A stretch of 64,000 bases of DNA, taken from positions 5,454-69,453 of IMG/VR virus record IMGVR_UViG_3300034093_000288; one strand, written 5' to 3'. Positions 1,297-38,276 of this stretch are shown here, in pieces. The stretch comes from a virus. The notes beneath the pieces are model-generated. The model did no database searches and was not told the DNA's origin. It was given only the letters and a program-made list of their open reading frames with translations. The position numbers and the translations under genes are program-made. The first letter of the stretch is position 1, and the number at the start of each line of letters is the position of its first letter.

Positions 1297-1313
1297 AACT
1301 AATTGGTTTTCTA

Positions 1314-1321
1314 CAAAGGTA
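1314..1321 (-). promoter_or_regulatory. -7 promoter element TACCTTTG
   Basis: Consensus TAnnTTTG 17 nt upstream of ATG 1296. Confidence 0.6.
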
Positions 1322-1569
1322 AACATTTGGTTTAGATGTATGGAGGTGTTATATACCCACCCCATTCTACGCTGCGACGGCCGATTGCGAAACCGAGAAA
1401 AACGTCGATAGGGGGGCACACAAAGCGAGCGCGCGCCCCAACTTTTTGACCTTTTCCTAGGGCTGTGCTGTAGGCCTTGCCTAGCCTAGGCTGTAGCGCT
1501 GCCCTCACTCCTTGCAGCTGCCACACGTATAACCCCGCGCCCCCATGCCCGCGCCACCGCTCCGCTGTT

Positions 1570-1585
1570 GTGTCTTCAAAGACAC
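1570..1585 (-). repeat. 16-bp near-palindrome copy 1 (inverted orientation)
   Basis: GTGTCTTCAAAGACAC on +, exact reverse complement of the other eight copies. Confidence 0.95.
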
Positions 1586-1711
1586 CTTCAATAAGGGGCT
1601 TGCGCCCGCTCTCCTATCTCCTCATCTAAGAATCCCCAAAATTTCACCCGTTCCTGTATCCCTTATGCAGTAAGGCTTGTGGAGCAACACAAAACTTTTT
1701 TCACATTTCTC

Positions 1712-1748
1712 TTGGATATGTCAAAAGAATTGTAGTAAATTTGTAATC
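1712..1748 (+). promoter_or_regulatory. early promoter P1 (TTG -33, TAAATTTG -7)
   Basis: AATTGTAGTAAATTTGTAATC; shares the 21-mer AATTGTAnTAnnTTTGTAATC with P2 and P3. Confidence 0.8.
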
Positions 1749-1939
1749 GAAATCAACGGGATAGGCAACCCGCTAACAGGTCACTCCCACCTCGAGGGTA
1801 TTAATATCGGGACTGCGAGCCAAAGCAGGTGAGGGACGGCTAACGAGTTTAAAGACTCTGAGCTTACGAAATCGAAAAGATGGCTTACACTACGAGTGGA
1901 ATAGGGTCGACCAATGACAGCGACCTAGAGTATACGACA

Positions 1940-1984
1940 GCGCGACGGGCAGACCCCGATGTTCGAGTCATCGGCGCGCACTAA
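1940..1984 (+). ncRNA. mini tRNA-like element A
   Basis: GCGCG-11 nt-CCGATG-TTCGAGT-CATCGG-CGCGC-ACTAA. Confidence 0.7.
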
Positions 1985-2009
1985 CCAATAACCCCTTAAA
2001 TTTTATCTT

Positions 2010-2657
2010 ATGTCTAATTTACTTTCAATCGAGCAAGCATTCTTGAGCAATGCAGAAATTCAACAAGCCCTCAACATGACTGAGGTAACCCGCTTACAGC
2101 GCTCTATCGATACAGCGCAAAAGAAGAAGTTCAACACCACCTTAGAGTTGAGCAAGGTCGTAAGCAAATCATACGAATGGTTCAAATCAGACGAGGCACA
2201 AGCCAAGTTCACAGCCGAGGGTATCTCATGGACCTCGGAAGACTTTGCGCTCAAGGTCTTCGGATGGCAAAAATCGTTCTTTCACAAGGTCATCAAGGTG
2301 AGCAAGGTCGATACCGAGGTAGTCGAGCGCTTTGATGCTGAGTGCAAGCGCCTAGAGCGCGAGGGTGAGAAGCCTAAGCGCTCAATCGAGGCCCTACTCA
2401 AGTTCGCAAAGGCTGTGGAAGCTAGCGCCAAGAGCGGTGGAGACGGCGAGGGAGACGGCGAGGGCGATGAGCCACAGGTTGAGACACGTCCACAAACGGC
2501 GTTCACCTTGACGTTCAAGGACGGCCACAATCCAAACGTTAGCATCCGCATCGATGAGAACGGGGTGATGACCACAACTAACGCGGCCATTGACATCAAG
2601 CGAGCGCTTGCGTTCTTGGTGTGCAATGAGCAGTACATCGAGTTACTAAATGCATAG
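2010..2657 (+). CDS. first early protein, hypothetical (215 aa)
   Basis: Long ORF after AT-rich leader; GDGEGDGEG linker; no family recognised. Confidence 0.85.
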   Translation: MSNLLSIEQAFLSNAEIQQALNMTEVTRLQRSIDTAQKKKFNTTLELSKVVSKSYEWFKSDEAQAKFTAEGISWTSEDFALKVFGWQKSFFHKVIKVSKVDTEVVERFDAECKRLEREGEKPKRSIEALLKFAKAVEASAKSGGDGEGDGEGDEPQVETRPQTAFTLTFKDGHNPNVSIRIDENGVMTTTNAAIDIKRALAFLVCNEQYIELLNA

Positions 2658-2672
2658 TGTCTTTGAAGACAC
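2657..2672 (+). repeat. 16-bp near-palindrome copy 2
   Basis: GTGTCTTTGAAGACAC overlapping the TAG stop of 2010..2657. Confidence 0.95.
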
Positions 2673-2677
2673 CGCAA

Positions 2678-2723
2678 GCGGGAATGGTTCAAGCGGGGGT
2701 TCGACTCCCCCGCCCGCAACTAA
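2678..2723 (+). ncRNA. mini tRNA-like element B
   Basis: GCGGG-11 nt-CGGGGG-TTCGACT-CCCCCG-CCCGC-AACTAA. Confidence 0.7.
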
Positions 2724-2760
2724 TCAATAACTTTAATTCAAACCCTTTAATTTTTACACC

Positions 2761-3651
2761 ATGAGTAATTTAACTTTCAATCAGAACGGCGTTAACTTTG
2801 GATTAACTAACGACCAAGAGCGCGGAGAAATCCACAGCTACCACTACAAGCCTAGCCCGCTATTCTTGAACAAGACCAAGGGACGCGCTGATGTGGCGGG
2901 CCTAAGCCCTAAGCGCTTGAGTCAAAACGTCCGCGTCTTTATGGGCGACGTTGAGAGCCGCTTCACCATTGGCTTTGAGGTTGAGAAGAACAGCCTACAC
3001 CGCAACTCAGTACGTGAGTACGAATTGTTTTGTGGATTCGAGCGCGACGGGTCATGTGGATACGAGGCCGTAACACACGTGTTGCCGCTAGTGCCCGCAT
3101 CTAAGTGGCGCACTAAGGTGTACGACATGATGCACAAGGCCGAGAAGATTATCGATGACCAATACAGCCCATCAGACCGCCGCTGTGGTGGACACATCAC
3201 GATAGCTGTTAATGGCATGGAAGGCGACCAAGTTCGCGAGGCCGTTCGCAAGTTCAGCGGGTTGATGTACGCAATGTTCCGCCACCGCTTGACTAATCAG
3301 TACTGCGAGTACAACAAGCGCATGGAGCAGTTTGATGACTGCCGCCACCACCGCAAGTACCAAGTTGCCTTGGTCAAGGGCAACACCTTGGAGTTCCGCT
3401 TGCCGTCACGTGTGGAGTCGGTCAAGCAGTTGATGCGCCGCTATGAGTTGATGTACGAAATGGTAGATGTGGCAGTCAATCGCCCCAACACTAGCTTCAA
3501 GGCATGGGTCAACAAGATGACCCCGCTATTGGTAACGATGTACGACGGCGATGCCGACAGGGTCGAGGCTATCAAGGCTTTGGCTGTTCACTTCCAAACG
3601 TACATCAATACGGGTGTGAAAAACCAAGCTATTGTAAGCTTTGTAGGATAG
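2761..3651 (+). CDS. putative amidoligase (COOH-NH2 ligase, glutamine-synthetase-like fold)
   Basis: Motifs GFEVE, DGS..GYE, CGGHI and TLEFR, typical of phage amidoligases. Confidence 0.8.
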   Translation: MSNLTFNQNGVNFGLTNDQERGEIHSYHYKPSPLFLNKTKGRADVAGLSPKRLSQNVRVFMGDVESRFTIGFEVEKNSLHRNSVREYELFCGFERDGSCGYEAVTHVLPLVPASKWRTKVYDMMHKAEKIIDDQYSPSDRRCGGHITIAVNGMEGDQVREAVRKFSGLMYAMFRHRLTNQYCEYNKRMEQFDDCRHHRKYQVALVKGNTLEFRLPSRVESVKQLMRRYELMYEMVDVAVNRPNTSFKAWVNKMTPLLVTMYDGDADRVEAIKALAVHFQTYINTGVKNQAIVSFVG

Positions 3652-3696
3652 GGTACATGGTGACACGAGGGGGTTCGACTCCCCCTCTACCCACAA
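3651..3696 (+). ncRNA. mini tRNA-like element C
   Basis: GGGTA-11 nt-GAGGGGG-TTCGACT-CCCCCTC-TACCC-ACAA. Confidence 0.7.
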
Positions 3697-3698
3697 TG

Positions 3699-3714
3699 GT
3701 GTCTTTGAAGACAC
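3699..3714 (+). repeat. 16-bp near-palindrome copy 3
   Basis: Exact copy, intergenic, just after element C. Confidence 0.95.
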
Positions 3715-3741
3715 TATATTGTTTAACTTAAATTTAATAAC

Positions 3742-3984
3742 ATGACAAGAGCAGATGTAATTGTAAAGATGTTCCAAGCGCCCGTTCGTAATTGGATAAT
3801 TGATAACGTGCTAAAACTAAAGCATCCAAAGTGGCTTGAACATGAGCAAGATGACTTTGGTACACGTAACGGGGTCGTGAAGGCTTATCAAGTATTGGAC
3901 GAGTCCTTTTGTTGGGCAGACACTAAGGAGGGCCATGACTTTTGGAGGGATATATGTCACAAACTAGAAAGAAAAAACATATGA
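3742..3984 (+). CDS. hypothetical protein with W..TKEGH.FW motif
   Basis: ORF; C-terminus paralogous to the next gene. Confidence 0.75.
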   Translation: MTRADVIVKMFQAPVRNWIIDNVLKLKHPKWLEHEQDDFGTRNGVVKAYQVLDESFCWADTKEGHDFWRDICHKLERKNI

Positions 3985-4247
3985 TAAGCAGAGCAACACT
4001 ATTCGACATGAAGCTACCCTACCCGCTAGGCGAGATAGCTAAGTGTGCGTTCGTACATTCACACTACGAGATGGGCTACAGCCCCGAGCGCATATACGAG
4101 ATGCTACATGAAGATGACTTCGAGGCACACCTTTCAATCCCAATGTGGTACATTATAATCGCTCATATTGAGTGGGCATCCACCAAGGAGGGTCACGCAT
4201 TTTGGCAAAACATACACGATAAACTAAAACAAATAGAAGAACAATGA
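3981..4247 (+). CDS. hypothetical protein with W..TKEGH.FW motif
   Basis: ATGA overlap with the upstream stop (start moved from 3942); shared C-terminal motif. Confidence 0.75.
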   Translation: MISRATLFDMKLPYPLGEIAKCAFVHSHYEMGYSPERIYEMLHEDDFEAHLSIPMWYIIIAHIEWASTKEGHAFWQNIHDKLKQIEEQ

Positions 4248-4699
4248 GAAACACACAGCTAATGGCATTTGAAGCTTGGATAAGCGATGGAAATGCAATG
4301 ATAATCGACAACGCATGGAGCACACAAGATGCGTGTTGGGCAAACCGAATTGAGACCAAGGGGGAGTTATTCAAGTACTACCTCAAGGAGTTCTTCGGCA
4401 TCAACCCCGCTCAGTACCTCTTCACCGAGGTACTCAAGTACATGGACGTCAAGAGTGAGCGCGAGTACGTGCTTAAGTACGACCATGCATCCGAGTGGAT
4501 TGTTGACTTGTTCATGACCATTCGCTCGGCTACCTTCGGGCGCTTTGCCAACTACGAGGGCCTTGAGTTCTCGGCTAACGGCATGGTGTTTAGACTTGAG
4601 AAGGAGTTCGGTCGCTTCGGCAAGTACGGGCGCTTACACATGACCCTCGAGGATGGTGTAGAACTTGATGACTTCCTCTACATGGTAGGAGGATGTTGA
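4244..4699 (+). CDS. hypothetical protein (151 aa)
   Basis: ATGA-coupled ORF in the early operon. Confidence 0.75.
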   Translation: MRNTQLMAFEAWISDGNAMIIDNAWSTQDACWANRIETKGELFKYYLKEFFGINPAQYLFTEVLKYMDVKSEREYVLKYDHASEWIVDLFMTIRSATFGRFANYEGLEFSANGMVFRLEKEFGRFGKYGRLHMTLEDGVELDDFLYMVGGC

Positions 4700-4727
4700 T
4701 AGTGAGCGAAAATAATCCCATAAACAT

Positions 4728-4763
4728 TTTGCATTGTAAATAAATTGTAATACCTTTGTAATC
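4728..4763 (+). promoter_or_regulatory. early promoter P2 (TTTG -33, TACCTTTG -7)
   Basis: AATTGTAATACCTTTGTAATC, 19-nt spacer. Confidence 0.8.
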
Positions 4764-4778
4764 CAATAACACAAGAAC

Positions 4779-4961
4779 ATGAGAACAGCAGTTAAATTAT
4801 CAGTAATCTACGGCGCTATATGCGCTTCAGTCGCATTGGCAATGACGTCATGCGCTAGTCAAAAACAATACGTTAGATGCGATGCGTACAAGACGCACTA
4901 TAAGCCCCTCAAGGCTGAGAAGCACCATGGTCACCACATCAAATGCGACGCTTATAACTAG
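4779..4961 (+). CDS. small putative lipoprotein
   Basis: Hydrophobic N-terminus with lipobox-like MTSC; CDAY occurs twice. Confidence 0.6.
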   Translation: MRTAVKLSVIYGAICASVALAMTSCASQKQYVRCDAYKTHYKPLKAEKHHGHHIKCDAYN

Positions 4962-4964
4962 GCC

Positions 4965-5282
4965 ATGAGAGTAGACTTCGCAGTACTAGACAGCTTGGTT
5001 CAAAGGGAGTTTGAGCCACAGCAGACGATGGATGTCTTAGCGAATGAGCCCATGGTAGTGATGTCATGGGGCGCTCGAAAGTTCGCTCAGTACAAGAACA
5101 AGGCGCTCTTCTTTAGAGTGAGTGGCCGCTTGCACAGGGGCATTGTGTGCATCACCCTAGCTTGGGATGACACCTACACAATCACATTGCTCAACTTAAA
5201 GTTCGAGGTAAATCAAACGCGAACGGACGTATACTTCGACGAGTTGGTCAACAACATCGACCACATGGTCGAGACAAGGTAG
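4965..5282 (+). CDS. hypothetical phage protein (105 aa)
   Basis: ORF with SWG...F.VSG..H.G.V.I.L...DTY...DVYFDEL pattern. Confidence 0.8.
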   Translation: MRVDFAVLDSLVQREFEPQQTMDVLANEPMVVMSWGARKFAQYKNKALFFRVSGRLHRGIVCITLAWDDTYTITLLNLKFEVNQTRTDVYFDELVNNIDHMVETR

Positions 5283-5297
5283 TGTCTTTGAAGACAC
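5282..5297 (+). repeat. 16-bp near-palindrome copy 4
   Basis: Exact copy overlapping the TAG stop of 4965..5282. Confidence 0.95.
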
Positions 5298-5300
5298 CAA

Positions 5301-5345
5301 GGTACGATGGTCTTAAGGGAGGTTCGATTCCTCCCGTACCACTAA
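5301..5345 (+). ncRNA. mini tRNA-like element D
   Basis: GGTAC-11 nt-GGGAGG-TTCGATT-CCTCCC-GTACC-ACTAA. Confidence 0.7.
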
Positions 5346-5363
5346 ACAATTAAAACAAATCAA

Positions 5364-5681
5364 ATGACAACAACACAAAACAAAGAAATGAGAGAGTTCA
5401 TCTTCAACGAGATGAATGCCTACGTAGCTATGTGTAGCGCAGACCGATACGGGCAACTTAGCACAATGGACGTGTACTCAGTATTCAAGAGCAGAACTGA
5501 TGAGGTTCTTGAGTACCTTAAGCAAGACCCGATGATTAGGGTATCTACATACGGCGGGCGCTTTGGTTCATACAAGGGCATCGGTGGTTTGCACGACATA
5601 CAAGACGAAGAGATGCGTGAGGCTTGCAAGTGGACATGGGCAAGAAACAAGAGTAGAATACAAAACCAAAACCAATGGTAA
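5364..5681 (+). CDS. hypothetical protein
   Basis: ORF with A-rich leader. Confidence 0.75.
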   Translation: MTTTQNKEMREFIFNEMNAYVAMCSADRYGQLSTMDVYSVFKSRTDEVLEYLKQDPMIRVSTYGGRFGSYKGIGGLHDIQDEEMREACKWTWARNKSRIQNQNQW

Positions 5682-5683
5682 AT

Positions 5684-5923
5684 ATGAAAGCAAGAGTTAA
5701 CCCATTCACCCGCGAGGTGATATTAGACAACGGACGTGAGGAGTTGTCAGTTCAGTTTACTGATTTAGATGAGTGGAGTTCGCTAAAGTTTAGCGACGGG
5801 TCATCATACGACATTCACTTCTACTATGATGAGACATTTCAACTGAGTGTATATCTAATTGAAAATGATGGCGAGGTAGCCTATGATGAAAGTGTATTAA
5901 CCAAAATAAATATAGAGTACTAA
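5684..5923 (+). CDS. hypothetical acidic protein
   Basis: ORF tightly packed in the operon. Confidence 0.65.
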   Translation: MKARVNPFTREVILDNGREELSVQFTDLDEWSSLKFSDGSSYDIHFYYDETFQLSVYLIENDGEVAYDESVLTKINIEY

Positions 5924-6114
5924 TGGACACACTAAACGAAGAACAAAGAAAAAAACTGATGCAAGAGATTCTTGATAGACTCATGTACTTGCCAAGCTTA
6001 AAGAGACGTGACTTCCTTGACACGTTACTAGACTCATTTGATGAGTACCCCCTAGACTATACCATCAACGATAGAGGTATGCGAGTCTACACTAACCCTA
6101 ATTTTAAAAAATAA
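5923..6114 (+). CDS. hypothetical protein
   Basis: TAATG-coupled ORF. Confidence 0.7.
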   Translation: MDTLNEEQRKKLMQEILDRLMYLPSLKRRDFLDTLLDSFDEYPLDYTINDRGMRVYTNPNFKK

Positions 6115-6119
6115 TAACT

Positions 6120-7169
6120 ATGTGCGTAATAATTGTAAAGAACAACAACAAGAAAATCAACACCAATGTGCTCAGCACAGCAAGTAAAATCAACCCCGAC
6201 GGGCTTGGCATCGTATGGCTTGACACCTACGAGGTAAGCCATCACAAATCAACTGAGTGGCTTAAGCTTAACACCGAGCGCCCATTCATTGCTCACTTCC
6301 GCTATGCTACCGTCGGTAAGGTCGGCCTAAGCAATACGCATCCATTCCAATGCGGCGCTCAGTCGGATGAGTGGCTGATGATGAACGGAACTATTGCGGG
6401 TCTAGGTACGTATCGTGACTGCGACAGCAAGGTCCTTGCTCGTCAGCTAGGTAACGTTAGCAGAGAGACGTGGAAGGCTGAGTTATCTAAGCACGACTCA
6501 CGCTTTGTGACGTTCAACACCCGCACTAGGTCTTATCAAATCTACAATCGTGAGGCTTGGGTACAGCAAGACGGGGTGTGGTACTCCAAGGGTAACGTAC
6601 TACAGCAGACACCCGTCGCTGTGTACGGCACGCTCAAGAAGAACAACTCTAACTATTGGCATTACCTCTCCGACTCTCAGTACGTAGGGTCGGGAGAGAC
6701 TGCCGACAAGTACCCGCTATTGGTCAAGGGCTTACCCTATTTGATTGACCACAAGGGTGTGGGCTACAACGTGGACGTAGATGTGTTCAACGTAAGTGAC
6801 GACACGCTACGTGCATTGGATAGACTCGAGGGTCACCCAAGGTGGTATCAGCGCAAGCTACGCGACATACGCGTCGGTAAGCAGATGATTAAGTGTTGGG
6901 TGTACTTCATGGAGGGCATGGAGGTAGAGTCTACTGATAAGATACATAAGTCTTATAAGCAGAACTACCGCTACGAGCCTATGGAGCCTACACGTGTGGA
7001 GGACGAAGAAGACCTACATTGCATTAACTGCCTAAATGTGGTGGAGTACGACAACCTAGACGTGTTCTACTGCAAGAGCTGTGGCGCGTGGTGGGAAGAG
7101 AAGGACCTTATGGACTTTAATGGTGTCTTTGAAGACACTAAGATTGATAACGATAATTTACCATTCTAA
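6120..7169 (+). CDS. class II glutamine amidotransferase fused to gamma-glutamylcyclotransferase (AIG2-like) and Zn ribbon
   Basis: N-terminal MC, NPDG.G, HFRYATVG, NTHPF, NGTI; then VYGTLK and LDRLEG; CxxC..CxxC near the C-terminus. Confidence 0.88.
   Translation: MCVIIVKNNNKKINTNVLSTASKINPDGLGIVWLDTYEVSHHKSTEWLKLNTERPFIAHFRYATVGKVGLSNTHPFQCGAQSDEWLMMNGTIAGLGTYRDCDSKVLARQLGNVSRETWKAELSKHDSRFVTFNTRTRSYQIYNREAWVQQDGVWYSKGNVLQQTPVAVYGTLKKNNSNYWHYLSDSQYVGSGETADKYPLLVKGLPYLIDHKGVGYNVDVDVFNVSDDTLRALDRLEGHPRWYQRKLRDIRVGKQMIKCWVYFMEGMEVESTDKIHKSYKQNYRYEPMEPTRVEDEEDLHCINCLNVVEYDNLDVFYCKSCGAWWEEKDLMDFNGVFEDTKIDNDNLPF
7123..7138 (+). repeat. 16-bp near-palindrome copy 5 (in CDS, reads VFEDT)
   Basis: Exact copy. 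Confidence 0.95.
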
Positions 7170-7360
7170 TGAGACGATTTGAAAATTTAACCTATATGTT
7201 TGTTGGTGTGGCGATTGGCTTCTTGCTTGTCGCCACTACACACAAAGAGAAAGTAAAGACTGAGTACTGCGTCATAGAGATTCCAAAGACCTCCGACATT
7301 ACCGACAAGATTGTTGATAGTGAGAGAGGGTATTATGAACATTTAGCACGCACAAAATAA
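7169..7360 (+). CDS. small membrane protein
   Basis: N-terminal hydrophobic helix; TAATG coupling. Confidence 0.65.
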   Translation: MRRFENLTYMFVGVAIGFLLVATTHKEKVKTEYCVIEIPKTSDITDKIVDSERGYYEHLARTK

Positions 7361-7361
7361 A

Positions 7362-7398
7362 TTTGTTTATATGAAACAATTGTATTATATTTGTAATC
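7362..7398 (+). promoter_or_regulatory. early/middle promoter P3 (TTTG -33, TATATTTG -7)
   Basis: AATTGTATTATATTTGTAATC, 20-nt spacer. Confidence 0.8.
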
Positions 7399-7413
7399 TA
7401 AAATCTAATTAAG

Positions 7414-7794
7414 ATGAGAAAAACACAACTAACAGACGTCATTCACTACGAGAAGATGTCGCAGAAGCCTAACGCACTACTAATACAAACGCTACAGCAA
7501 ACCCTTGACGGGCTACGTGAGTTTGACTTCAAGGACTTTATTGGAACGGGTAGGTTTATACCTATCGACACACTACCTAACGAGTACAAGATATTTATCA
7601 GTAAGGACACAGCATCCATTGTTGTCTACGTTGGAAATTACTTCATTCCATGCGACGCAGACGGATACTTCTTTATCACCATAGATAACCGAAGTGAGGC
7701 TGATGAGCACCTTGAAGTATTCAAGAGTAAGAAACTAATTGACGTTGAACATAAGCTATGGGACACATACGCACATGAATCATTTAAGCGATGA
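7414..7794 (+). CDS. hypothetical protein
   Basis: ORF directly after P3. Confidence 0.75.
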   Translation: MRKTQLTDVIHYEKMSQKPNALLIQTLQQTLDGLREFDFKDFIGTGRFIPIDTLPNEYKIFISKDTASIVVYVGNYFIPCDADGYFFITIDNRSEADEHLEVFKSKKLIDVEHKLWDTYAHESFKR

Positions 7795-8093
7795 AGAAGA
7801 GCGTATTCACTCAGTATGTAGACATCGTATCAAGGATGTTTGCAATGACACCTGGGCAGATGTTCGAGAACACCAAGCGCCGTTCGGTAACCGAGGCGCG
7901 TCAGTTGTTCATCTTCCTATGCATCAGACGTCAAATCCCCATGTGTAACATTATGGATTGGTCGCTAGTATACGGACGTAAGTTCACGTACTCATCAATC
8001 ATCAATGCTGTTCGCTACATGGAGCGTAAGATGGCAGACGATAGGGACTACATCCAAATAATAAAGAACATCGAATCCAAAGTAATCAATTAA
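7791..8093 (+). CDS. DnaA domain IV (C-terminal HTH)-like protein
   Basis: TKRRSVTEARQLFIFLC...YSSII resembles the DnaA-C pattern R.R.IV.ARQIAMYL...HSTVI. Confidence 0.6.
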   Translation: MKKSVFTQYVDIVSRMFAMTPGQMFENTKRRSVTEARQLFIFLCIRRQIPMCNIMDWSLVYGRKFTYSSIINAVRYMERKMADDRDYIQIIKNIESKVIN

Positions 8094-8103
8094 ATCAATA
8101 CAT

Positions 8104-8715
8104 ATGAAAGAACAACAATCAGTTTTTAAGACACTCTCGTCAGTAGACATCAGAGAGAAAATCGAGACCAAGGGTAACGTCAAGTATTTGTCTTGGTCAT
8201 TCGCTTGGGAAATCCTCAAGGAGCACTACCCATCAGCAGAGAGAGTTGTGTATGAGAATCCATCTACGGGACTCAACTACTTTACGGATGGCAACACAGC
8301 CTACGTTAAGGTTGGTGTAAGGGTAGACGGTATTGAGAACATCGACTACCTACCAATCATGGACTTCCGCAATCAATCTATCCGCTTAGATAAGCTTACG
8401 TCAATGGACGTTAACAAGGCTATTCAGCGTTCGACTGCTAAGGCTATCGCCATGCATGGCTTAGGACTTCAGTTGTGGACGGGTGAGGATATGCCTGAGA
8501 TGACTACAGCTAAGCCTACGAAGCCCGCTAAAGCTACTGAGGAGGAGCCTAAGCTAACAACTCTCATCGTTAATAGTGATGACTACCACAAGGTACTTAA
8601 GTACGTTCAGGACAACGCATCGCTTGGCGAGGAGAAAATCTTCAAGCAGATTGAGCGTAAGTATGTGCTCACACCATTAGTAAAGAAAGTATTAATCAAA
8701 GAGATAACAAAGTAA
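8104..8715 (+). CDS. Sak/Rad52-like single-strand annealing protein (DUF1071-like)
   Basis: YLSWSFAW, LPIMDFRN, NKAIQRS.AKAIAMHGLGL; adjacent to an exonuclease. Confidence 0.8.
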   Translation: MKEQQSVFKTLSSVDIREKIETKGNVKYLSWSFAWEILKEHYPSAERVVYENPSTGLNYFTDGNTAYVKVGVRVDGIENIDYLPIMDFRNQSIRLDKLTSMDVNKAIQRSTAKAIAMHGLGLQLWTGEDMPEMTTAKPTKPAKATEEEPKLTTLIVNSDDYHKVLKYVQDNASLGEEKIFKQIERKYVLTPLVKKVLIKEITK

Positions 8716-8716
8716 C

Positions 8717-9451
8717 ATGAACAACGTAACAGAACTATTAAAGAATGACGCTGAGTATTACGGAGGGGTAGGAAAGAACTACCTCTCTAACTCCGACATT
8801 GGCGCGCTATTAACTAACCCAAAGACGTTCAAGCAAGACCGACCTGATAACAAGTCGTTTGCTGAGGGTCGCTACTTCCATCAGCTACTCATTGAGCCCG
8901 ACAAGGCACAGGTAGCGAACATGGTCGAGGCATCTACGCGTAACACCAAAATCTACAAGGACTACTGCGATGCCAACGAGTTGGACTTCTGCTTACTCAA
9001 GCACGAGGTTGATGAGGTTGAGTCATTAGCTAAGTTGATGCGCTCTAACATCTACTTCTACGACGAAATCTACAAAGACGGCAACGTGTATGAGCAGCCG
9101 GCCATCGGAGAGATTAAGGGATTGATGTGGAAGGGTAAGGCGGACATCATCACCGATGAGGTCATCATCGACCTGAAGACTACGTCCGACATTCAAAAGT
9201 TCAAGTGGTCAGCTAAGGCCTACAACTACGACAGCCAAGCTTACATCTACCAAAAGCTATTCGGTAAGCCGCTTATCTTCTTTGTAATTGACAAGACCAC
9301 TCAGCAGTTGGGTATCTTCCGTCCTACCGAGAACTTTATCCTAGGTGGTGAGCGCAAGGTCGAGAGAGCCATTGAGGTATACAACACGTACTTCGGTGAC
9401 AACGCAAGTGATGACATCGACAACTACTACATCGACGAGCAATTAGACTAA
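8717..9451 (+). CDS. RecE/ExoVIII-like PD-(D/E)XK exonuclease (DUF3799-like)
   Basis: LSNS, G..FH, KGKAD, IIDLKTT, Y..QAYIY. Confidence 0.85.
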   Translation: MNNVTELLKNDAEYYGGVGKNYLSNSDIGALLTNPKTFKQDRPDNKSFAEGRYFHQLLIEPDKAQVANMVEASTRNTKIYKDYCDANELDFCLLKHEVDEVESLAKLMRSNIYFYDEIYKDGNVYEQPAIGEIKGLMWKGKADIITDEVIIDLKTTSDIQKFKWSAKAYNYDSQAYIYQKLFGKPLIFFVIDKTTQQLGIFRPTENFILGGERKVERAIEVYNTYFGDNASDDIDNYYIDEQLD

Positions 9452-9833
9452 CCTTTAAATCAGAATAAGATGACAGCAGTAGAAAAAGCACAAGAGTTAT
9501 TTATGAGAAATTTTGAAATAACTGTTGATGATTATTGTGCCAAACAATGCGCTTTGATTGCAGTTGATATAGCAATCAAGTGCTGTAAAGATTACGATGA
9601 AGTACATGAAAACTATACCACTCAGGTAAATTATTGGCAAGAAGTAAAAAACGAACTAAATAAATTATAATAAAATGAAACAGACAGCAGTAGAATGGTT
9701 AGAGCAAGAGCTCTATAAGACAGGATGGGAGCAATTAACTCATGAGGAAAAAATGAATATTTGTTGCACTGCAAAAATGATGGAGAGAAAGCAGATAGAT
9801 ACTACAACGAAACCTTTAAATCAGAATAAGATG
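9450..9833 (+). repeat. 23-bp direct repeat AACCTTTAAATCAGAATAAGATG at 9450-9472 and 9811-9833
   Basis: Exact duplication flanking two AT-richer small genes; each copy ends in a start codon. Confidence 0.85.
9470..9670 (+). CDS. small hypothetical protein (AKQCALIAVD...YWQEVK type)
   Basis: ORF; pattern I recall from aquatic Bacteroidetes phages. Confidence 0.75.
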   Translation: MTAVEKAQELFMRNFEITVDDYCAKQCALIAVDIAIKCCKDYDEVHENYTTQVNYWQEVKNELNKL

Positions 9834-9947
9834 GAAAACAAAAGAGAACGTAGAGAAAGGTCAGGTGCGATAGGCACCATGATACTAATAGGAACAATAA
9901 TTTTGTTAACAATAATCAACTTTATTTATGAAATATCAACAAAATAG
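9675..9947 (+). CDS. MKQTAVEWL-type protein, apparently frameshift-fused to a downstream small membrane ORF (9831..9947)
   Basis: YYNETFKSE-stop lies out of frame at about 9800-9829; internal ATG at 9831. Confidence 0.55.
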   Translation: MKQTAVEWLEQELYKTGWEQLTHEEKMNICCTAKMMERKQIDTTTKPLNQNKMENKRERRERSGAIGTMILIGTIILLTIINFIYEISTK

Positions 9948-10038
9948 TTTGGTATATGGGTACATATTCTTAATTTTGATGGGTGCTATGACAGCACTAT
10001 GTATCCTAAATTCTTAGTAACTAATTAAATCAATAACA

Positions 10039-10341
10039 ATGGAACAAAAAGAAAGAACATTCGCAGACGGCTTTATCTTCAAGAGAAAAGAAAACGCACC
10101 CGAATTTGTAGTAGGTCGCTTATCAGTTAAGGTTGACGAGGCAATCGCATTCATGCGTGCAAACGCAAGTGATGGATGGGTAAATCTTGACATCAAGTAC
10201 GGACGTACCGGTAACGCATACGTCGAGTTGGATACGTTCAAGCCAAAAAACGCTGACGGTTTTCAAAAGCCTCAGGCTGCTAAGCCAAAGGCACAACCTC
10301 AAGTAGAAGAGGACGACGAGGACGGGGACCTACCCTTTTAA
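10039..10341 (+). CDS. probable single-stranded DNA-binding protein
   Basis: Small beta-rich protein with acidic tail EEDDEDGDLPF, in the recombination/replication block. Confidence 0.7.
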   Translation: MEQKERTFADGFIFKRKENAPEFVVGRLSVKVDEAIAFMRANASDGWVNLDIKYGRTGNAYVELDTFKPKNADGFQKPQAAKPKAQPQVEEDDEDGDLPF

Positions 10342-10361
10342 TCGTTGATAGTGAGAGAGTT

Positions 10362-10388
10362 AAGGGGAGTTTTCCGCTCCCCTTTTTT
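10362..10388 (+). terminator. rho-independent terminator
   Basis: AAGGGGAG-ttttccg-CTCCCCTT followed by a T run. Confidence 0.8.
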
Positions 10389-10399
10389 GACCCCTAAAG

Positions 10400-10570
10400 T
10401 CTGTCGGAATGTTAAAATCTTCTCTCTCTATACTCTCTATATATATTTTACTATTCTTTCTTTTTTTATTTATTCTATTTTAGATTTAAAATCGACAGAA
10501 TCGACAGTAAATTGAATATCAGATAGTTAGCCGACAGTAAAACGACACTAATGAAATAAAATCGACATAA
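10400..10570. other. putative replication origin locus 2
   Basis: CTGTCG, TATATA/T-rich tract, five CGACA iterons, IHF-like TATCAGATAGTTA at 10517-10529; directly upstream of primase-helicase. Confidence 0.65.
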
Positions 10571-10571
10571 C

Positions 10572-13004
10572 ATGACATTACAAGTAACAATCTTCCAAAA
10601 CATCAAGGAAACAGCTGCCCCATTCTTTAAGGAGGTTGACGTTATCCTTGAGCGTATCAAGGAGGGTAAGTCTAAGGATTTGGTTAAGCGCATACGTGCT
10701 GAGAAGCGCAAGCCTGAGCGTAATGAACTAAAGAAGGGTCTACCCGCAATATGCTTTAGCGGTACGTTCAATAAGCGTGCTGACTCATCGCTCATTCAGC
10801 ACAGCGGATTGATATGCCTAGACTTCGATGGATACGAAAAGCAGAAATCATTACTTCAGGATAAGGAGAACCTATCAAAGAACAAGTACGTGTACTCGGT
10901 CTTTATCTCTCCATCTGGCAACGGCCTCAAGGTATTGGTTAAGATACCCGCTGACCCCGAGAACCACACAAACTACTTCAACAGCTTAGAGAAGTACTTC
11001 AACAGCCCGTACTTCGATAAGACGTCTAAGAACATCAGCCGCGTGTGCTACGAGTCATACGACCCGCAGATACACGTTAACCCTAACTCAAGTATTTGGG
11101 ATATCATCGAGGAGCCTGAGTACACCGAGATGAGTAAGTTTAGAGATGCGCCGACCATTCCAATCACCGATGAGAACAAGATAGTTGACATCCTCATTAA
11201 GTGGTGGACTAAAAAGTACCCGATGGTTGAGGGTCAACGAAACCACAACGCGTACATCTTGGCGCGTTCGCTAAATGACTTTGGCATCAACAAGAGCCTA
11301 GCTACCTACGTGCTTGGTCAATTCCAAACCCAAGACTTTACGCTTACCGAGATAGCAAGAACGATTGATTCGGCTTACGCCAACACTTCTGACTTCGGTA
11401 CTAAGTACTACGAGGACGAGGAGTACATCAATCAGCTACGTGCAAAGCTTCGTCGCGGTGTACCAAAAAAGGATGTGCGCTCTCAAATGCAAGATTCCAA
11501 TTTGAGCAGCGAGGTAATCGATTCGGTACTCAACAAGGTTGAGGAGGAAAACGCTAAGCAGACGTTTTGGACCAAGAACGATAAGGGAGTCGTAAAGATT
11601 GTACACATTCAGTTCAAGCAGTTTCTAGAGGATAACGGATTCTACAAGTACTGCCCCGAGGGTGGTAAGAACTACGTGTTCGTCAAGGTGACCAATAACC
11701 TCATCGACCACACATCAGAGAAGGAGTTAAAGGACTTCGTGTTAAACCATCTACTTGAGTTAGATGACATCATGGTGTACAACTACTTCGCTGACAACAC
11801 TCGCTTCTTTAAGGAGGAGTTCCTATCGCTGTTGTCTACCATCGACATCTACTTCATTGCAGATACCAAGGACACAGCGTACCTTTACTATCGCAATTGT
11901 GCGGTAAAGATTACAAAGAGAGAGGTCATACCAATTGACTACTTGGACTTAGGTGGATACGTTTGGAAGGACCACGTGATTGATAGAAACTTTACCATAT
12001 GCCCCGTAACAGAGGCCTGTGACTATAGGTACTTCATCAGAAACATATGTGGCCACGACGACTACCGAGTCGCTTCCATGGAGTCTACCATTGGCTTCTT
12101 GATGCATGGGTACAAGAACCTATCGTTCTGCCCAGCTGTGATTCTAAATGATGAGGTCATCAGCGACAACCCTGAGGGTGGTACGGGTAAGGGATTGTTC
12201 ATGAACGCGCTAAGCCAAATGAAGAAGGTCGTCACCATTGACGGTAAGTCTTTTACGTTTGAGCGTAGCTTCGCCTATCAGTTGGTGTCAGCAGATACGC
12301 AGATACTTGTGTTCGATGACGTCAAGAAATACTTCGACTTCGAGCGTTTGTTCAGCGTTGTTACTGAGGGATTGACCCTTGAGAAGAAGAACAAGGACGC
12401 TATCAAGATACCATTCAGTAAGTCTCCAAAGATTGCCATTACCACCAACTACGCTATCAGGGGTGCGGGTAACTCATTTGCTCGCCGTAAGTGGGAGCTA
12501 GAGTTACATCAGTACTATCGCAAATCATTTACCCCGCTCGATGAGTTTGGTAAGTTGATGTTCGGTGACTGGAACGATGTTGATTGGTGTGAGTTTGACA
12601 ACTACATGATTGGGTGCCTACAGGGATTCTTAAACACAGGTCTTGTTAAGTCTAAGTTTGTCAACCTTAAGATTCGTCAGCTATCAGCTGAGACGTGCCA
12701 CGACTTTATCGAGTGGTGTGGATTGGTTGAGAACATGGGCGATGAGCAGAGACTATACCCTGAGATTCGATACTACAAGAACGACCTATACTTCGACTTC
12801 ATTAATGAGTACCCGGACTACGGACCTAAGGCTAAGATGACCATCAGTAGAACGCGATTCTACAAGTGGCTTACGTCATACGCACTATTTAAGGAGGGTA
12901 TTGAGCCTACCGAGGGTAGAGATGACAAGGGCCGTTGGATTATCATTAACAAGAAGAAGCAAGAGCCCGAGGCTGAATACGAGGAACCTGAGTTATTTGA
13001 TTAG
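10572..13004 (+). CDS. primase-helicase (BT4734/VirE-N-like N-terminal domain, PriCT-like region, C-terminal P-loop ATPase)
   Basis: K..LP.I.FSG.F, SGLICLDFD, FISPSGNGLK, SR.CYES.DP; GQRN; Walker A GGTGKG, Walker B LVFDD, ITTN. Confidence 0.85.
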   Translation: MTLQVTIFQNIKETAAPFFKEVDVILERIKEGKSKDLVKRIRAEKRKPERNELKKGLPAICFSGTFNKRADSSLIQHSGLICLDFDGYEKQKSLLQDKENLSKNKYVYSVFISPSGNGLKVLVKIPADPENHTNYFNSLEKYFNSPYFDKTSKNISRVCYESYDPQIHVNPNSSIWDIIEEPEYTEMSKFRDAPTIPITDENKIVDILIKWWTKKYPMVEGQRNHNAYILARSLNDFGINKSLATYVLGQFQTQDFTLTEIARTIDSAYANTSDFGTKYYEDEEYINQLRAKLRRGVPKKDVRSQMQDSNLSSEVIDSVLNKVEEENAKQTFWTKNDKGVVKIVHIQFKQFLEDNGFYKYCPEGGKNYVFVKVTNNLIDHTSEKELKDFVLNHLLELDDIMVYNYFADNTRFFKEEFLSLLSTIDIYFIADTKDTAYLYYRNCAVKITKREVIPIDYLDLGGYVWKDHVIDRNFTICPVTEACDYRYFIRNICGHDDYRVASMESTIGFLMHGYKNLSFCPAVILNDEVISDNPEGGTGKGLFMNALSQMKKVVTIDGKSFTFERSFAYQLVSADTQILVFDDVKKYFDFERLFSVVTEGLTLEKKNKDAIKIPFSKSPKIAITTNYAIRGAGNSFARRKWELELHQYYRKSFTPLDEFGKLMFGDWNDVDWCEFDNYMIGCLQGFLNTGLVKSKFVNLKIRQLSAETCHDFIEWCGLVENMGDEQRLYPEIRYYKNDLYFDFINEYPDYGPKAKMTISRTRFYKWLTSYALFKEGIEPTEGRDDKGRWIIINKKKQEPEAEYEEPELFD

Positions 13005-38242: not shown

Positions 38243-38276
38243 TAAAAATAGGGGAGTGTCTTTGAAGACACCCCCC
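38243..38276 (-). terminator. capsid-gene terminator whose stem-loop contains palindrome copy 8 (38256-38271)
   Basis: GGGGGGTGTCT-TCAA-AGACACTCCCC-TATTTTT on -. Confidence 0.8.

What the first reader, a model, noticed from the sequence alone, without database searches (positions are those of the whole stretch)
1940..5345. Four covarying mini-tRNA elements punctuate the early transcript
Seen: elements at 1940, 2678, 3651 and 5301 share one architecture. Each has a 5-bp outer stem, an 11-nt linker with GG at positions 4-5, a 6-7-bp stem closed by G-C around TTCGAnT, the outer-stem 3' strand directly adjoining, and then ACTAA/AACTAA/ACAA. Stem sequences differ (GCGCG, GCGGG, GGGTA, GGTAC; CCGATG, CGGGGG, GAGGGGG, GGGAGG) yet all pair perfectly. 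Each lies 20-50 nt upstream of a start codon. Established: TTCGAnT is the tRNA T-loop, GG is its D-loop partner, and an 11-12-bp acceptor/T stack is what RNase P and RNase Z measure. Inference: these are anticodon-less tRNA mimics acting as processing or stabilising signals (analogous to T7 RNase III sites), as antitermination elements, or as decoys for tRNA-targeting defences.
Basis: partly seen in the sequence, partly recalled or inferred. Interest (0 to 1): 0.88.

Follow-up and report, generated by a model that had tools for sequence, protein, structure and literature searches.

The report
Mini-tRNA cut marks in phage operon
Four 40-nt anticodon-less tRNA mimics sit between early genes of a freshwater phage, exactly where related phages carry self-cleaving hammerhead ribozymes, so they are most likely cut sites that host tRNA-processing enzymes use to split the phage's long early RNA.

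Summary
Four + strand elements (1940-1979, 2678-2717, 3651-3692, 5301-5340) share a 5-bp outer stem, an 11-nt GG linker and a 6-7-bp stem with a G-C-closed TTCGAnT loop. Shuffled windows give 0.01 such elements. ARAGORN and Rfam find nothing.

The family is real. Twenty-six copies occur in 15 of 73 related sources, all on the sense strand, with compensatory changes at 10 of 11 pairs.

New here: relatives hold hammerhead ribozymes in the same intergenic slots. RF00008 matches 40 of 50 records; this phage and its two closest kin have four mini-tRNAs and no hammerhead. After the amidoligase-like gene, 47 of 67 loci have a hammerhead-type element, 9 a tRNA-type and 11 neither, with at least 5 switches on the gene tree. 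Both types follow the same conserved hairpin and precede a start codon.

Best reading (0.65): cis cleavage signals for host RNase P and/or RNase Z, bacteriophage counterparts of organellar and archaeal t-elements. No RNA-end data were obtainable. I rate it a new variant of a known kind, interest 0.85.

The parts
1940..1979 (+). Mini-tRNA e1 (5+6 bp stack, 11-nt GG linker, TTCGAGT loop). It lies in the leader 30 nt upstream of the first early ORF (2010-2657).
   Evidence: R2: 45.8 bits, E 3.2e-8
2657..2672 (+). Conserved hairpin 'h' (GTGTCTTTGAAGACAC). Its first base is the last base of the stop codon of ORF 2010-2657, and it ends 5 nt upstream of e2.
2678..2717 (+). Mini-tRNA e2, between ORF 2010-2657 and the amidoligase-like ORF 2761-3651.
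   Evidence: 58.4 bits, E 1.5e-11
3651..3692 (+). Mini-tRNA e3 (5+7 bp). Its first base is the last base of the TAG stop of ORF 2761-3651. The orthologous slot holds a type III hammerhead in most relatives.
   Evidence: (found by model R1, which was built without it: 29.6 bits, E 3.1e-4)
3699..3714 (+). Hairpin 'h', 6 nt downstream of e3 and 27 nt upstream of the ATG at 3742.
5282..5297 (+). Hairpin 'h', overlapping the stop of ORF 4965-5282 and ending 3 nt upstream of e4.
5301..5340 (+). Mini-tRNA e4, 23 nt upstream of ORF 5364-5681.
   Evidence: 56.6 bits, E 4.5e-11

Best explanation
The four elements are transcribed as part of the polycistronic early mRNA. Each folds into a 'top-half' tRNA made of:
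- an acceptor-like stem stacked on a T-arm (11-13 bp in all);
- a canonical T-loop;
- a short linker whose N-A-UGG-U-N' mini-hairpin supplies the D-loop GG that docks on the T-loop to make a tRNA elbow.

The phage has no tRNA gene and no CCA-adding enzyme. Host tRNA-maturation enzymes would therefore recognise the mimic. RNase P would cut at its 5' edge, and/or RNase Z would cut after the discriminator position, since no CCA is encoded. Either cut divides the early transcript into separate gene segments. The adjacent conserved hairpin 'h' would be left 1-9 nt from the new 3' end of the upstream segment, or at the 5' end of the downstream one.

On this reading the mini-tRNA does in trans what hammerhead ribozymes do in cis at the same junctions in related phages.

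Shown: the structure, its covariation, its strand and intergenic placement, and the positional exchange with hammerheads.
Inferred: that it is cleaved, which enzyme cleaves it, and what cleavage achieves (segment-specific stability or translation).
For: 1. Structure under selection.
- 26 copies in 15 of 73 related sources, all on the + (sense) strand.
- 98.1% of cells paired. 10 of 11 pairs have changes on both sides. Covariation score 1.08 against 0.21 in shuffles (0 of 500 reach it) and 0.11-0.25 when partners are slid.
- MAFFT plus RNAalifold, run independently of my model, recovers the same 11 pairs.

2. The invariant positions are the tRNA ones that the processing enzymes read.
- G-TTCGAnT-C in 26 of 26 and the linker GG.
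- Passages of PMC11143913 state that RNase P cleaves acceptor/T-stem/T-loop hairpins, that replacing the T-loop lowers efficiency, that G19, G53 and A58 show interference, and that a 12-bp stack acts as a measuring device. The stacks here are 11-13 bp.

3. Exchange with ribozymes.
- RF00008 matches 40 of 50 related records at E <= 0.01 (3 of 50 over the curated cut-off).
- It matches none of the three records that carry four mini-tRNAs each.
- My structural scan finds 125 hammerhead-like motifs on the + strand and 0 on the - strand, in 51 of 73 sources; 113 have GUC or GUA at the cut.
- Slot after gene B, 67 loci: 41 strict hammerheads, 6 core-only, 6 strict mini-tRNAs, 3 T-loop variants, 11 none.
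- The exchange is also seen in the A|B slot and after gene K.
- At least 5 hammerhead/mini-tRNA switches on the gene-B tree of 61 rows; well-supported branches force at least 2.

4. Same grammar.
- Hairpin h lies within 12 nt upstream of 12 of 26 mini-tRNAs and 65 of 103 type III hammerheads.
- The next ORF start is a median of 34 nt away for mini-tRNAs and 22 nt for type III hammerheads.

5. Dependence on a universal host machine fits the spread. 31 further copies lie in 28 loci of other viral contigs with locus G+C 32-73%. None is an ARAGORN tRNA.

6. Graded series. The same operons hold cloverleaf-like forms, forms with a D-arm, and minimal forms. True tRNAs in relatives also lack an encoded CCA.

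7. Precedent. t-elements carrying the GGTTCRANYCC motif direct RNase P and RNase Z cuts at plant mitochondrial mRNA ends (PMC1920247, passages) and in Haloferax (PMC4326828, passages).
Against: - No RNA ends were seen. The only public runs holding the stretch are contigs of roughly 90%-identical relatives, and they cannot show ends. One contig from an RNA library spans h plus e2 uncut, although that could be DNA or precursor.
- The outer stems are only 5 bp in the window copies. [quoted passage not shown]
- No 3' CCA is encoded to pair with RNase P RNA.
- At e3, and at its orthologues in L004 and L005, the element's 5' edge overlaps the upstream stop codon. A 5' cut there would leave a truncated stop.
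- Cleavage cannot be essential. 11 of 67 loci have nothing in the slot, and GenBank relative MW202828.1 has only h hairpins.
- Outside this clade, mini-tRNAs occur almost without hammerheads: 1 in 213,786 bases. The exchange is therefore shown for one lineage only.
- Folding energies are unremarkable.
Confidence: 0.65

Rival explanations
1. The elements are genes for small trans-acting RNAs. After excision and CCA addition, the ~41-nt mini-tRNAs would act as decoys or sponges for host factors that read the acceptor/T-arm/elbow, such as tRNA-directed defence toxins, RNase P, the CCA-adding enzyme, TruB/TrmA or EF-Tu. Intergenic placement would then be only a convenient way to express them.
For: - Multiple copies per genome with different stems but an invariant elbow.
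- Spread across unrelated phages.
- t-elements can accumulate as stable RNAs with added C/CA (PMC1920247, passages).
Against: - It does not explain why hammerheads, which release no tRNA-like RNA, repeatedly take the same slots with the same h hairpin and ATG spacing.
- Acceptor sequences and the discriminator base are not conserved, so no particular tRNA is mimicked.
- There is no anticodon arm, so anticodon nucleases cannot be the target.
Confidence: 0.15
2. The elements are uncleaved structural modules in the mRNA. They would act as a 3'- or 5'-protective tRNA-like cap, or as a platform that recruits ribosomes or a protein to help translate the next ORF, which has no Shine-Dalgarno sequence.
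For: - Always 20-142 nt (median 34) upstream of an ORF start.
- 0 of 20 early genes have a Shine-Dalgarno-like core.
- Passages of PMC4201824 propose that a tRNA fold may protect RNAs from nucleases.
Against: - A plain stable hairpin would do for protection. The strict T-loop and GG conservation points to tRNA-specific recognition.
- The functional counterpart in relatives is a self-cleaving RNA.
- Several copies abut or overlap the upstream stop codon rather than keeping a fixed distance to the ATG.
Confidence: 0.12
3. The elements are decaying remnants of phage tRNA genes, or DNA-level sites such as attP-like tRNA fragments, with no RNA function.
For: - True tRNA genes lie in the same early region in some relatives (L045, L053, L057).
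- Intermediate forms exist.
Against: - Compensatory changes at 10 of 11 pairs, plus a covarying linker pair.
- The same reduced architecture appears in contigs with locus G+C of 32-73%.
- In the related early regions, 38 of 41 T-loop/outer-stem candidates of the model-free scan, and all 28 R1 matches at E <= 1, lie on the sense strand; the window itself has 4 on + and 0 on -.
- Four copies per genome with unrelated stem sequences.
Confidence: 0.03

Closest known systems
t-elements of plant mitochondria and Haloferax volcanii (PMC1920247 and PMC4326828; passages read)
   Same: - tRNA-like structures embedded in longer transcripts.
- They carry the GGTTCRANYCC T-arm motif.
- Their borders coincide with mRNA or rRNA ends.
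- They are processed by RNase P and RNase Z, and C/CA is sometimes added.
   Different: - The described t-elements are about 74 nt or 'non-canonical cloverleaves' found in organelles and archaea.
- These are ~40-nt forms with no anticodon arm and a 2-bp D-arm remnant.
- They lie in bacteriophage early operons, are multi-copy, are coupled to a conserved hairpin, and are interchangeable with hammerheads.
- Processing has not been shown here.
Hammerhead ribozymes in phage and prophage polycistronic transcripts (Rfam RF00008; PMC3088659 passages; PMC6765202 section 13)
   Same: - Same intergenic slots, same strand, same upstream hairpin and same short leader before the next ORF in related phages.
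- Tandem arrangements flanking genes were already reported, and a role in processing polycistronic RNA was suggested.
   Different: - Unrelated fold and chemistry.
- Hammerheads self-cleave, giving a 2',3'-cyclic phosphate and a 5'-OH.
- The mini-tRNA has no catalytic core and would need host enzymes, giving a 3'-OH and a 5'-phosphate.
RNase P minihelix model substrates (acceptor stem + T-stem + T-loop; PMC11143913 passages) and non-tRNA RNase P substrates such as the P1/P7 C4 RNA precursor and operon mRNAs (seen only as reference-list entries in that paper)
   Same: - A coaxial acceptor/T stack with an authentic T-loop is sufficient for correct RNase P cleavage.
- Phage use of RNase P on a non-tRNA has precedent.
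   Different: - The model substrates are synthetic and usually carry 3' CCA and a 7+5 bp stack.
- The natural elements add a GG linker, lack CCA, and have 5-8 bp outer stems.
Mitochondrial tRNA punctuation and MALAT1/mascRNA 3'-end formation (recalled, not checked in any call)
   Same: A tRNA or tRNA-like fold between or after coding segments marks where RNase P and RNase Z cut. Stop codons can abut the tRNA.
   Different: - Those use full tRNAs or a cloverleaf-like mascRNA in eukaryotic compartments.
- Here the elements are non-decoding 40-nt forms in a phage of a bacterium.
Bacterial Y RNA (YrlA) tRNA-like module (PMC4201824 passages)
   Same: A T-arm plus D-arm plus acceptor-like stem without a decoding anticodon. 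M. smegmatis YrlA is cut by RNase P and receives CCA.
   Different: - YrlA is a ~100-nt stand-alone ncRNA with a Ro60-binding helix, encoded next to rsr.
- No Rfam match was found here.
- The elements here sit within mRNA.

Membership tests
tRNA (Rfam RF00005 / ARAGORN) | Cloverleaf with an anticodon arm and a 7-nt anticodon loop | tested here: not met
   - ARAGORN finds 0 genes in the window and 0 in the whole record.
- Rfam gives no tRNA match even at E <= 10 over 1300-5600.
- The 10-13-nt linker leaves no room for an anticodon arm.
- True tRNAs score only 17.6-18.5 bits with model R2, against 37-58 bits for family members.
tRNA (Rfam RF00005 / ARAGORN) | T-arm with a G53-C61 closing pair and a T54-Psi55-C56-R57-A58 loop, stacked on the acceptor stem | tested here: met
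   - G-TTCGAnT-C is invariant in 26 of 26 copies.
- The 3' strand of the outer stem directly adjoins the inner stem in all copies.
t-elements (tRNA-like processing signals) | tRNA-like fold containing the GGTTCRANYCC T-arm motif, embedded in a longer transcript | tested here: met
   - e2, e3 and e4 match GGTTCGANTCC exactly.
- e1 has TGTTCGAGTCA, so the loop is kept while the stem differs.
- All copies are intergenic on the sense strand.
- Transcription itself was not shown.
t-elements (tRNA-like processing signals) | Borders coincide with RNA 5'/3' ends made by RNase P and/or RNase Z | not testable with these tools
   Only assembled contigs of ~90% relatives were available. Raw reads from an infection, or in vitro assays, are needed.
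Hammerhead ribozyme (RF00008 and related) | CUGANGA and GAAA core with three stems and an NUH cleavage triplet | tested here: not met
   - No hammerhead in the window by Rfam.
- None by my structural scan.
- The four elements contain no such core.
tmRNA tRNA-like domain | Acceptor stem ending in an encoded or added CCA, a G3:U70 alanine identity pair, and a linked tag reading frame | tested here: not met
   - ARAGORN tmRNA search is negative.
- Outer-stem position 3 pairs as GC, UA, CG or AU, never G:U, in 23 of 24 distinct copies.
- No CCA follows the stem.
Intrinsic (Rho-independent) terminator | G+C-rich hairpin followed directly by a U-tract | tested here: not met
   - The terminator scan flags none of the four elements. 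It finds 7 sites in 1300-7500 against 6.0 expected. One of them is the h hairpin at 3696-3717.
- The tails are ACTAA, AACTAA and ACAA.

The most novel reading that the evidence does not exclude
Phages may use a modular 'RNA punctuation' system in which self-cleaving ribozymes and minimal top-half tRNAs are interchangeable cassettes placed after a conserved hairpin. Beyond cutting the mRNA, the excised ~41-nt mini-tRNAs would receive CCA and act in trans. They could serve as elbow/acceptor decoys against tRNA-directed host defences, or as sponges for host tRNA enzymes. That would make them a previously unrecognised, widespread class of phage small RNA.
Probability: 0.15. Interest if true: 0.95.

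Novelty: new variant of a known kind. Interest (0 to 1): 0.85.

Why it matters
1. It defines a compact, covariation-supported RNA family that Rfam 15 does not detect. The family is present in many unrelated uncultured phages.

2. It bears on an open question. The 2019 review I read states that the roles of bacterial and phage hammerheads are 'largely elusive' (PMC6765202, section 13). At one orthologous junction a hammerhead and a substrate-like mimic for RNase P/Z have replaced each other at least five times. The simplest shared property is RNA scission at that point. This can be tested directly by swapping the two cassettes in a reporter.

3. It would extend tRNA punctuation and t-element processing from organelles and archaea to bacteriophages.

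4. It is a natural counterpart of the engineered practice, recalled and not checked here, of using either tRNAs or ribozymes to cut polycistronic RNAs. It could supply very short processing parts.

Tried and rejected
- **Rfam.** Nothing was found at gathering threshold on the window. At E <= 10 on 1300-5600 there were only four chance-level hits to unrelated families.
- **RNA evidence.** The look-up of sequencing runs returned three runs holding 6-9% of the sampled words. Laid on the stretch, all are Logan contigs of ~90% relatives. There are no read starts or ends and no usable joints at the elements. They say nothing on processing.
- **Named phage relatives.**
  - A DNA search gave only weak matches to the gene at 6120-7169. 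The strongest were to Sak-annotated genes of Lactococcus phages, and one was to MW202828.1.
  - A protein search with gene B gave MW202828.1 alone.
  - That record has neither mini-tRNAs (R2 with filters off; best E 0.24) nor Rfam hits. It has only h hairpins. No cultured host system was found.
- **Phage-encoded CCA-adding enzyme.** PF01743 is absent from the record. RNase P and RNase Z families were not searched.
- **Flank pairing of h.** I tested whether the flanks of h extend its stem as a general rule. Only 18 of 276 distinct sites extend by 3 bp or more. Whether h acts as RNA or as DNA therefore stays open.
- **First hammerhead scan.** The script had a register error (9 hits). It was corrected.
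- **Slot counts.** The counts come from mechanical ORF bounds, and a few loci are misplaced. For example, L031 reads 'none' in the A|B slot although one search shows a hammerhead there.
- **Literature.** Eight searches found no paper describing phage mini-tRNAs or their exchange with hammerheads. Subscription journals and supplementary tables were not searchable. The hammerhead lists of PMC3088659 are an example of what I could not see.

Full report
**1. Source and setting**

The window is bases 5454-69453 of a 69,453-base IMG/VR virus record that CheckV rates as complete. The runs that hold similar sequence are freshwater, freshwater-sediment and soil metagenomes.

The region 2010-13004 is a tight run of + strand ORFs. 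None of 20 early ORFs has a Shine-Dalgarno-like core; their leaders are 48-95% A+T, and 18 of the 20 are at least 67%. TAnnTTTG motifs lie at 1736-1743 and 4751-4758. I recall that motif as the Bacteroidota -7 promoter element, so a Bacteroidota-type host is an inference, not a result.

**2.

- a 5-bp outer stem;
- an 11-nt linker with GG at positions 4-5;
- a 6-7-bp inner stem closed by G-C around TTCGAnT;
- the 3' strand of the outer stem directly adjoining the inner stem;
- then ACTAA, AACTAA or ACAA.

A model-free scan finds 4 on the + strand and 0 on the - strand. Dinucleotide shuffles of the window give a mean of 0.01. The rest of the record has none.

ARAGORN calls no tRNA or tmRNA in the window or the whole record. 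Rfam 15 gives nothing at gathering score and only chance-level hits at E <= 10.

Folding energies alone are unremarkable, with z-scores of -0.4 to -1.4.

**3. It is a conserved RNA family**

I used the amidoligase-like protein of ORF 2761-3651 ('gene B'; weak match to phrog_2443) to fetch 72 related loci from IMG/VR.

- Model R1 was built from e1, e2 and e4 only. It recovered e3 (E 3.1e-4) and 22 copies in 14 relatives, all on the gene strand.
- Model R2, rebuilt from these 26, found the same 26 at E <= 5.6e-6. The next hit was at E 0.15. True tRNAs scored only 17.6-18.5 bits.
- Whole-record searches of 50 records (G000 plus 49 relatives) found no copies outside the early region.

On the 26-row alignment:
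- 98.1% of cells pair.
- 10 of 11 pairs show changes on both sides.
- The covariation score is 1.08, against 0.21 for shuffles (0 of 500 reach it) and 0.11-0.25 for slid partners.

That alignment was fitted to the model. An independent MAFFT plus RNAalifold run on 33 sequences gives the same 11 pairs, 10 of them with compensatory changes.

Invariant positions are the closing G-C, T, T, C, G, A, -, T of the loop, and the linker GG. These correspond to tRNA G53, T54, Psi55, C56, R57, A58, U60, C61 and G18/G19.

Linker positions 1 and 7 also covary. In the clade they read G-C 8, A-U 6, U-A 2 and unpaired 7. In the wider set, where these two positions were not fixed by the search pattern, 25 of 27 pair, as A-U 11, G-C 5, U-A 5, C-G 3 and G-U 1. 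The linker is therefore a 2-bp D-arm remnant closing a UGG loop.

**4. A wider family**

Two lie on the contig already known as L005. The other 31 lie in 28 loci with locus G+C of 32-73%.

- None overlaps an ARAGORN tRNA.
- Ten begin within 13 nt of, or overlap, the stop codon of an upstream sense ORF.
- Most lie 20-70 nt upstream of an ORF start.
- 21 of 31 have no sense ORF of 50 aa or more spanning them.

The T-loop and ATGGT were imposed by the search pattern in this set. The stems and the 1-7 linker pair were not.

**5. The key new result: exchange with hammerhead ribozymes**

I read the junctions flanking gene B in the relatives. Where the mini-tRNA is missing, the slot holds ...GUC|stem I hairpin-CUGAUGAG-stem II hairpin-CGAAAC..., a type III hammerhead.

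Rfam evidence:
- One copy passes the RF00008 gathering score.
- 14 more in six loci score E 1e-6 to 0.03.
- Over whole records, RF00008 matches 40 of 50 at E <= 0.01, with 1-4 matches each and 3 records over the cut-off. One of 14 control genomes gave a match, and it was below the cut-off.

My own structural scan finds 125 motifs (103 type III, 22 type I) on the + strand and none on the - strand, in 51 of 73 sources. Of these, 113 have GUC or GUA at the cut.

The distributions are complementary:
- The window's record and its two closest relatives (L004, L005) have four mini-tRNAs and no hammerhead.
- Records without mini-tRNAs mostly have 2-4 hammerheads.
- Several records have both.

A synteny map shows the two kinds in the same three slots:

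| Slot | Mini-tRNA | Hammerhead |
|---|---|---|
| Between genes A and B | window, L004 (with an extra small gene), L005, L024, L042, L045, L055 | L021, L031, L034, L041, L048, L049, L063 |
| After gene B | window, L004, L005, L027, L030, L033 | most other loci |
| After gene K (6120-7169 in the window) | L021, L048, L049 | 17 loci |

In the slot after gene B, 67 loci could be evaluated:
- 41 have a strict hammerhead.
- 6 have a hammerhead core only.
- 6 have a strict mini-tRNA.
- 3 have a T-loop variant.
- 11 have nothing.

On a maximum-likelihood tree of gene B, the hammerhead/mini-tRNA state changes at least 5 times, and well-supported branches alone force at least 2. The tree has 61 rows. 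Rows without a near-full-length (query residues 40 or earlier to within 20 of the end), stop-free gene-B match and a scored slot state were left out. Core-only cases were counted as hammerhead and T-loop variants as mini-tRNA.

**6. Shared grammar**

Both kinds sit between a stop codon and a short A-rich leader.
- The next ORF start is a median of 34 nt after a mini-tRNA (26 of 26 within 200 nt).
- It is 22 nt after a type III hammerhead (101 of 103 within 200 nt).
- It is 17 nt after a type I hammerhead (22 of 22).

Both are commonly preceded by the same hairpin 'h' (GTGTC-N6-GACAC). It lies within 12 nt upstream of 12 of 26 mini-tRNAs and 65 of 103 type III hammerheads, and within 12 nt downstream of 3 mini-tRNAs, e3 among them.

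In L021 the hairpin forms stem III of a type I hammerhead. In L037 it occupies the anticodon-arm position of a larger tRNA-like element.

**7. A graded series**

The same operons contain:
- true tRNAs (L030, L045, L053, L057);
- cloverleaf-sized tRNA-like elements that ARAGORN does not call, for example L034 11633-11702, which has a tetraloop where the anticodon loop should be;
- forms with acceptor, D-arm and T-arm only (L021 6469-6523, L048 9014-9068, L045 5916-5960);
- the minimal form.

This suggests reduction from tRNA genes down to what the processing enzymes read. The direction of change is an inference.

**8. Mechanism**

[quoted passage not shown] They also state that replacing the T-loop lowers efficiency and shifts the cut, that G19, G53 and A58 matter, and that the 12-bp acceptor/T stack acts as a ruler.

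The elements keep exactly these features. Their stacks are 11-13 bp.

I recall, without checking, that RNase Z needs only the acceptor/T-arm domain and is blocked by an encoded CCA. None is encoded here, nor in the relatives' true tRNAs. The record has no tRNA gene and no CCA-adding enzyme. Host enzymes must therefore act.

In the h-then-element arrangement, a cut at the element's 5' edge would leave the upstream mRNA ending in h plus 1-9 nt. That parallels the type III hammerhead cut a few nucleotides after h.

I put 0.65 on 'cis cleavage signal for RNase P and/or RNase Z'. I cannot say which enzyme acts, or whether the excised RNA persists.

**9. What argues against it**

- No RNA ends were seen.
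- The outer stems are 5 bp in the window copies. Passages of PMC4201824 stress a 7-bp acceptor stem for RNase P.
- At e3, and at its L004 and L005 orthologues, the 5' edge overlaps the stop codon. A 5' cut would leave UA. This resembles mitochondrial punctuation but is awkward in bacteria. A 3' cut by RNase Z would avoid the problem.
- 11 of 67 loci, and GenBank MW202828.1, have no cleavage element.
- Outside the clade, mini-tRNAs come almost without hammerheads.

**10. Comparison with what is known, and novelty**

The closest known things are:
- t-elements;
- tandem hammerheads in phage polycistronic RNAs, whose function is still called elusive.

I did not find in eight literature searches or in Rfam:
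- a ~40-nt anticodon-less top-half tRNA family in bacteriophage operons;
- its repeated positional exchange with hammerheads.

Supplementary tables and non-open journals could not be searched.

I rate this a new variant of a known kind, with interest 0.85.

Noticed in passing
window 1570-1585, 2657-2672, 3699-3714, 5282-5297, 7123-7138, 14685-14700, 22834-22849, 38256-38271, 45348-45363; relatives L004-L075; L183: A 16-nt near-palindrome, GTGTCTT(TG/CA)AAGACAC, occurs 9 times in this genome, some copies inside ORFs. As GTGTC-N6-GACAC it occurs at 276 distinct sites in the 73 sources. In MW202828.1 the variant GTGTCGTTAACGACAC follows the stop of many early genes (8 of the 17 intergenic gaps printed). 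It also forms stem III of a type I hammerhead (L021) and replaces the anticodon arm of a tRNA-like element (L037 5054-5117). Only 18 of 276 sites have flanks that extend the stem by 3 bp or more. Whether it is an RNA hairpin (an end protector or protein site) or a DNA operator is unresolved.
   Followed up: partly
L029 10033-10116; L031 6610-6697; L034 11494-11565 and 11633-11702; L039 11432-11534: Cloverleaf-sized tRNA-like elements with an authentic T-arm and a 6-9-bp acceptor stem (6-8 bp in four of the five) that ARAGORN does not call. In at least one (L034 11633-11702), a 5-bp stem with a 4-nt loop stands where the anticodon arm should be. They may be non-decoding intermediates between tRNAs and the mini form.
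   Followed up: partly
L183 (MW202828.1) 5706-5802: An intergenic 9-bp stem (GGTAGGGGA / TCCCCTACC) encloses two small hairpins and is followed by ACTAACC and then the h hairpin. The tail and context match those of the mini-tRNAs, but there is no T-loop. Rfam has no match. It may be a third kind of element for the same slot.
   Followed up: no
window 2761-3651 and 6120-7169: The early operon conserves an amidoligase-like protein (weak match to phrog_2443) and a protein matching gamma-glutamyl cyclotransferase (phrog_2520, E 2e-20) that also has a short glutamine-amidotransferase-like stretch. The two are syntenic across about 50 relatives. Their function in the phage is unknown.
   Followed up: no
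window 1380-1640: A ~260-bp G+C-rich island sits in a 40.6% G+C genome, in the divergent region upstream of the early operon. It ends in the one h copy with the inverted centre (1570). A loose end of a contig from run X3 shows a similar G+C-rich string in front of the h at 5282 in a relative.
   Followed up: no
window 1736-1743 and 4751-4758; starts of 20 ORFs in 2010-10572: TAnnTTTG motifs lie upstream of the early genes, and 0 of 20 ORFs have a Shine-Dalgarno-like core. Leaders are mostly A+T-rich (18 of 20 at 67% or more). This suggests a Bacteroidota-type host. The promoter consensus is recalled, not tested.
   Followed up: partly
L079 3209-3255: One member of the wider set ends in ...CCGTCCACCA, that is, with an encoded CCA after the stem, unlike all the others.
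   Followed up: no
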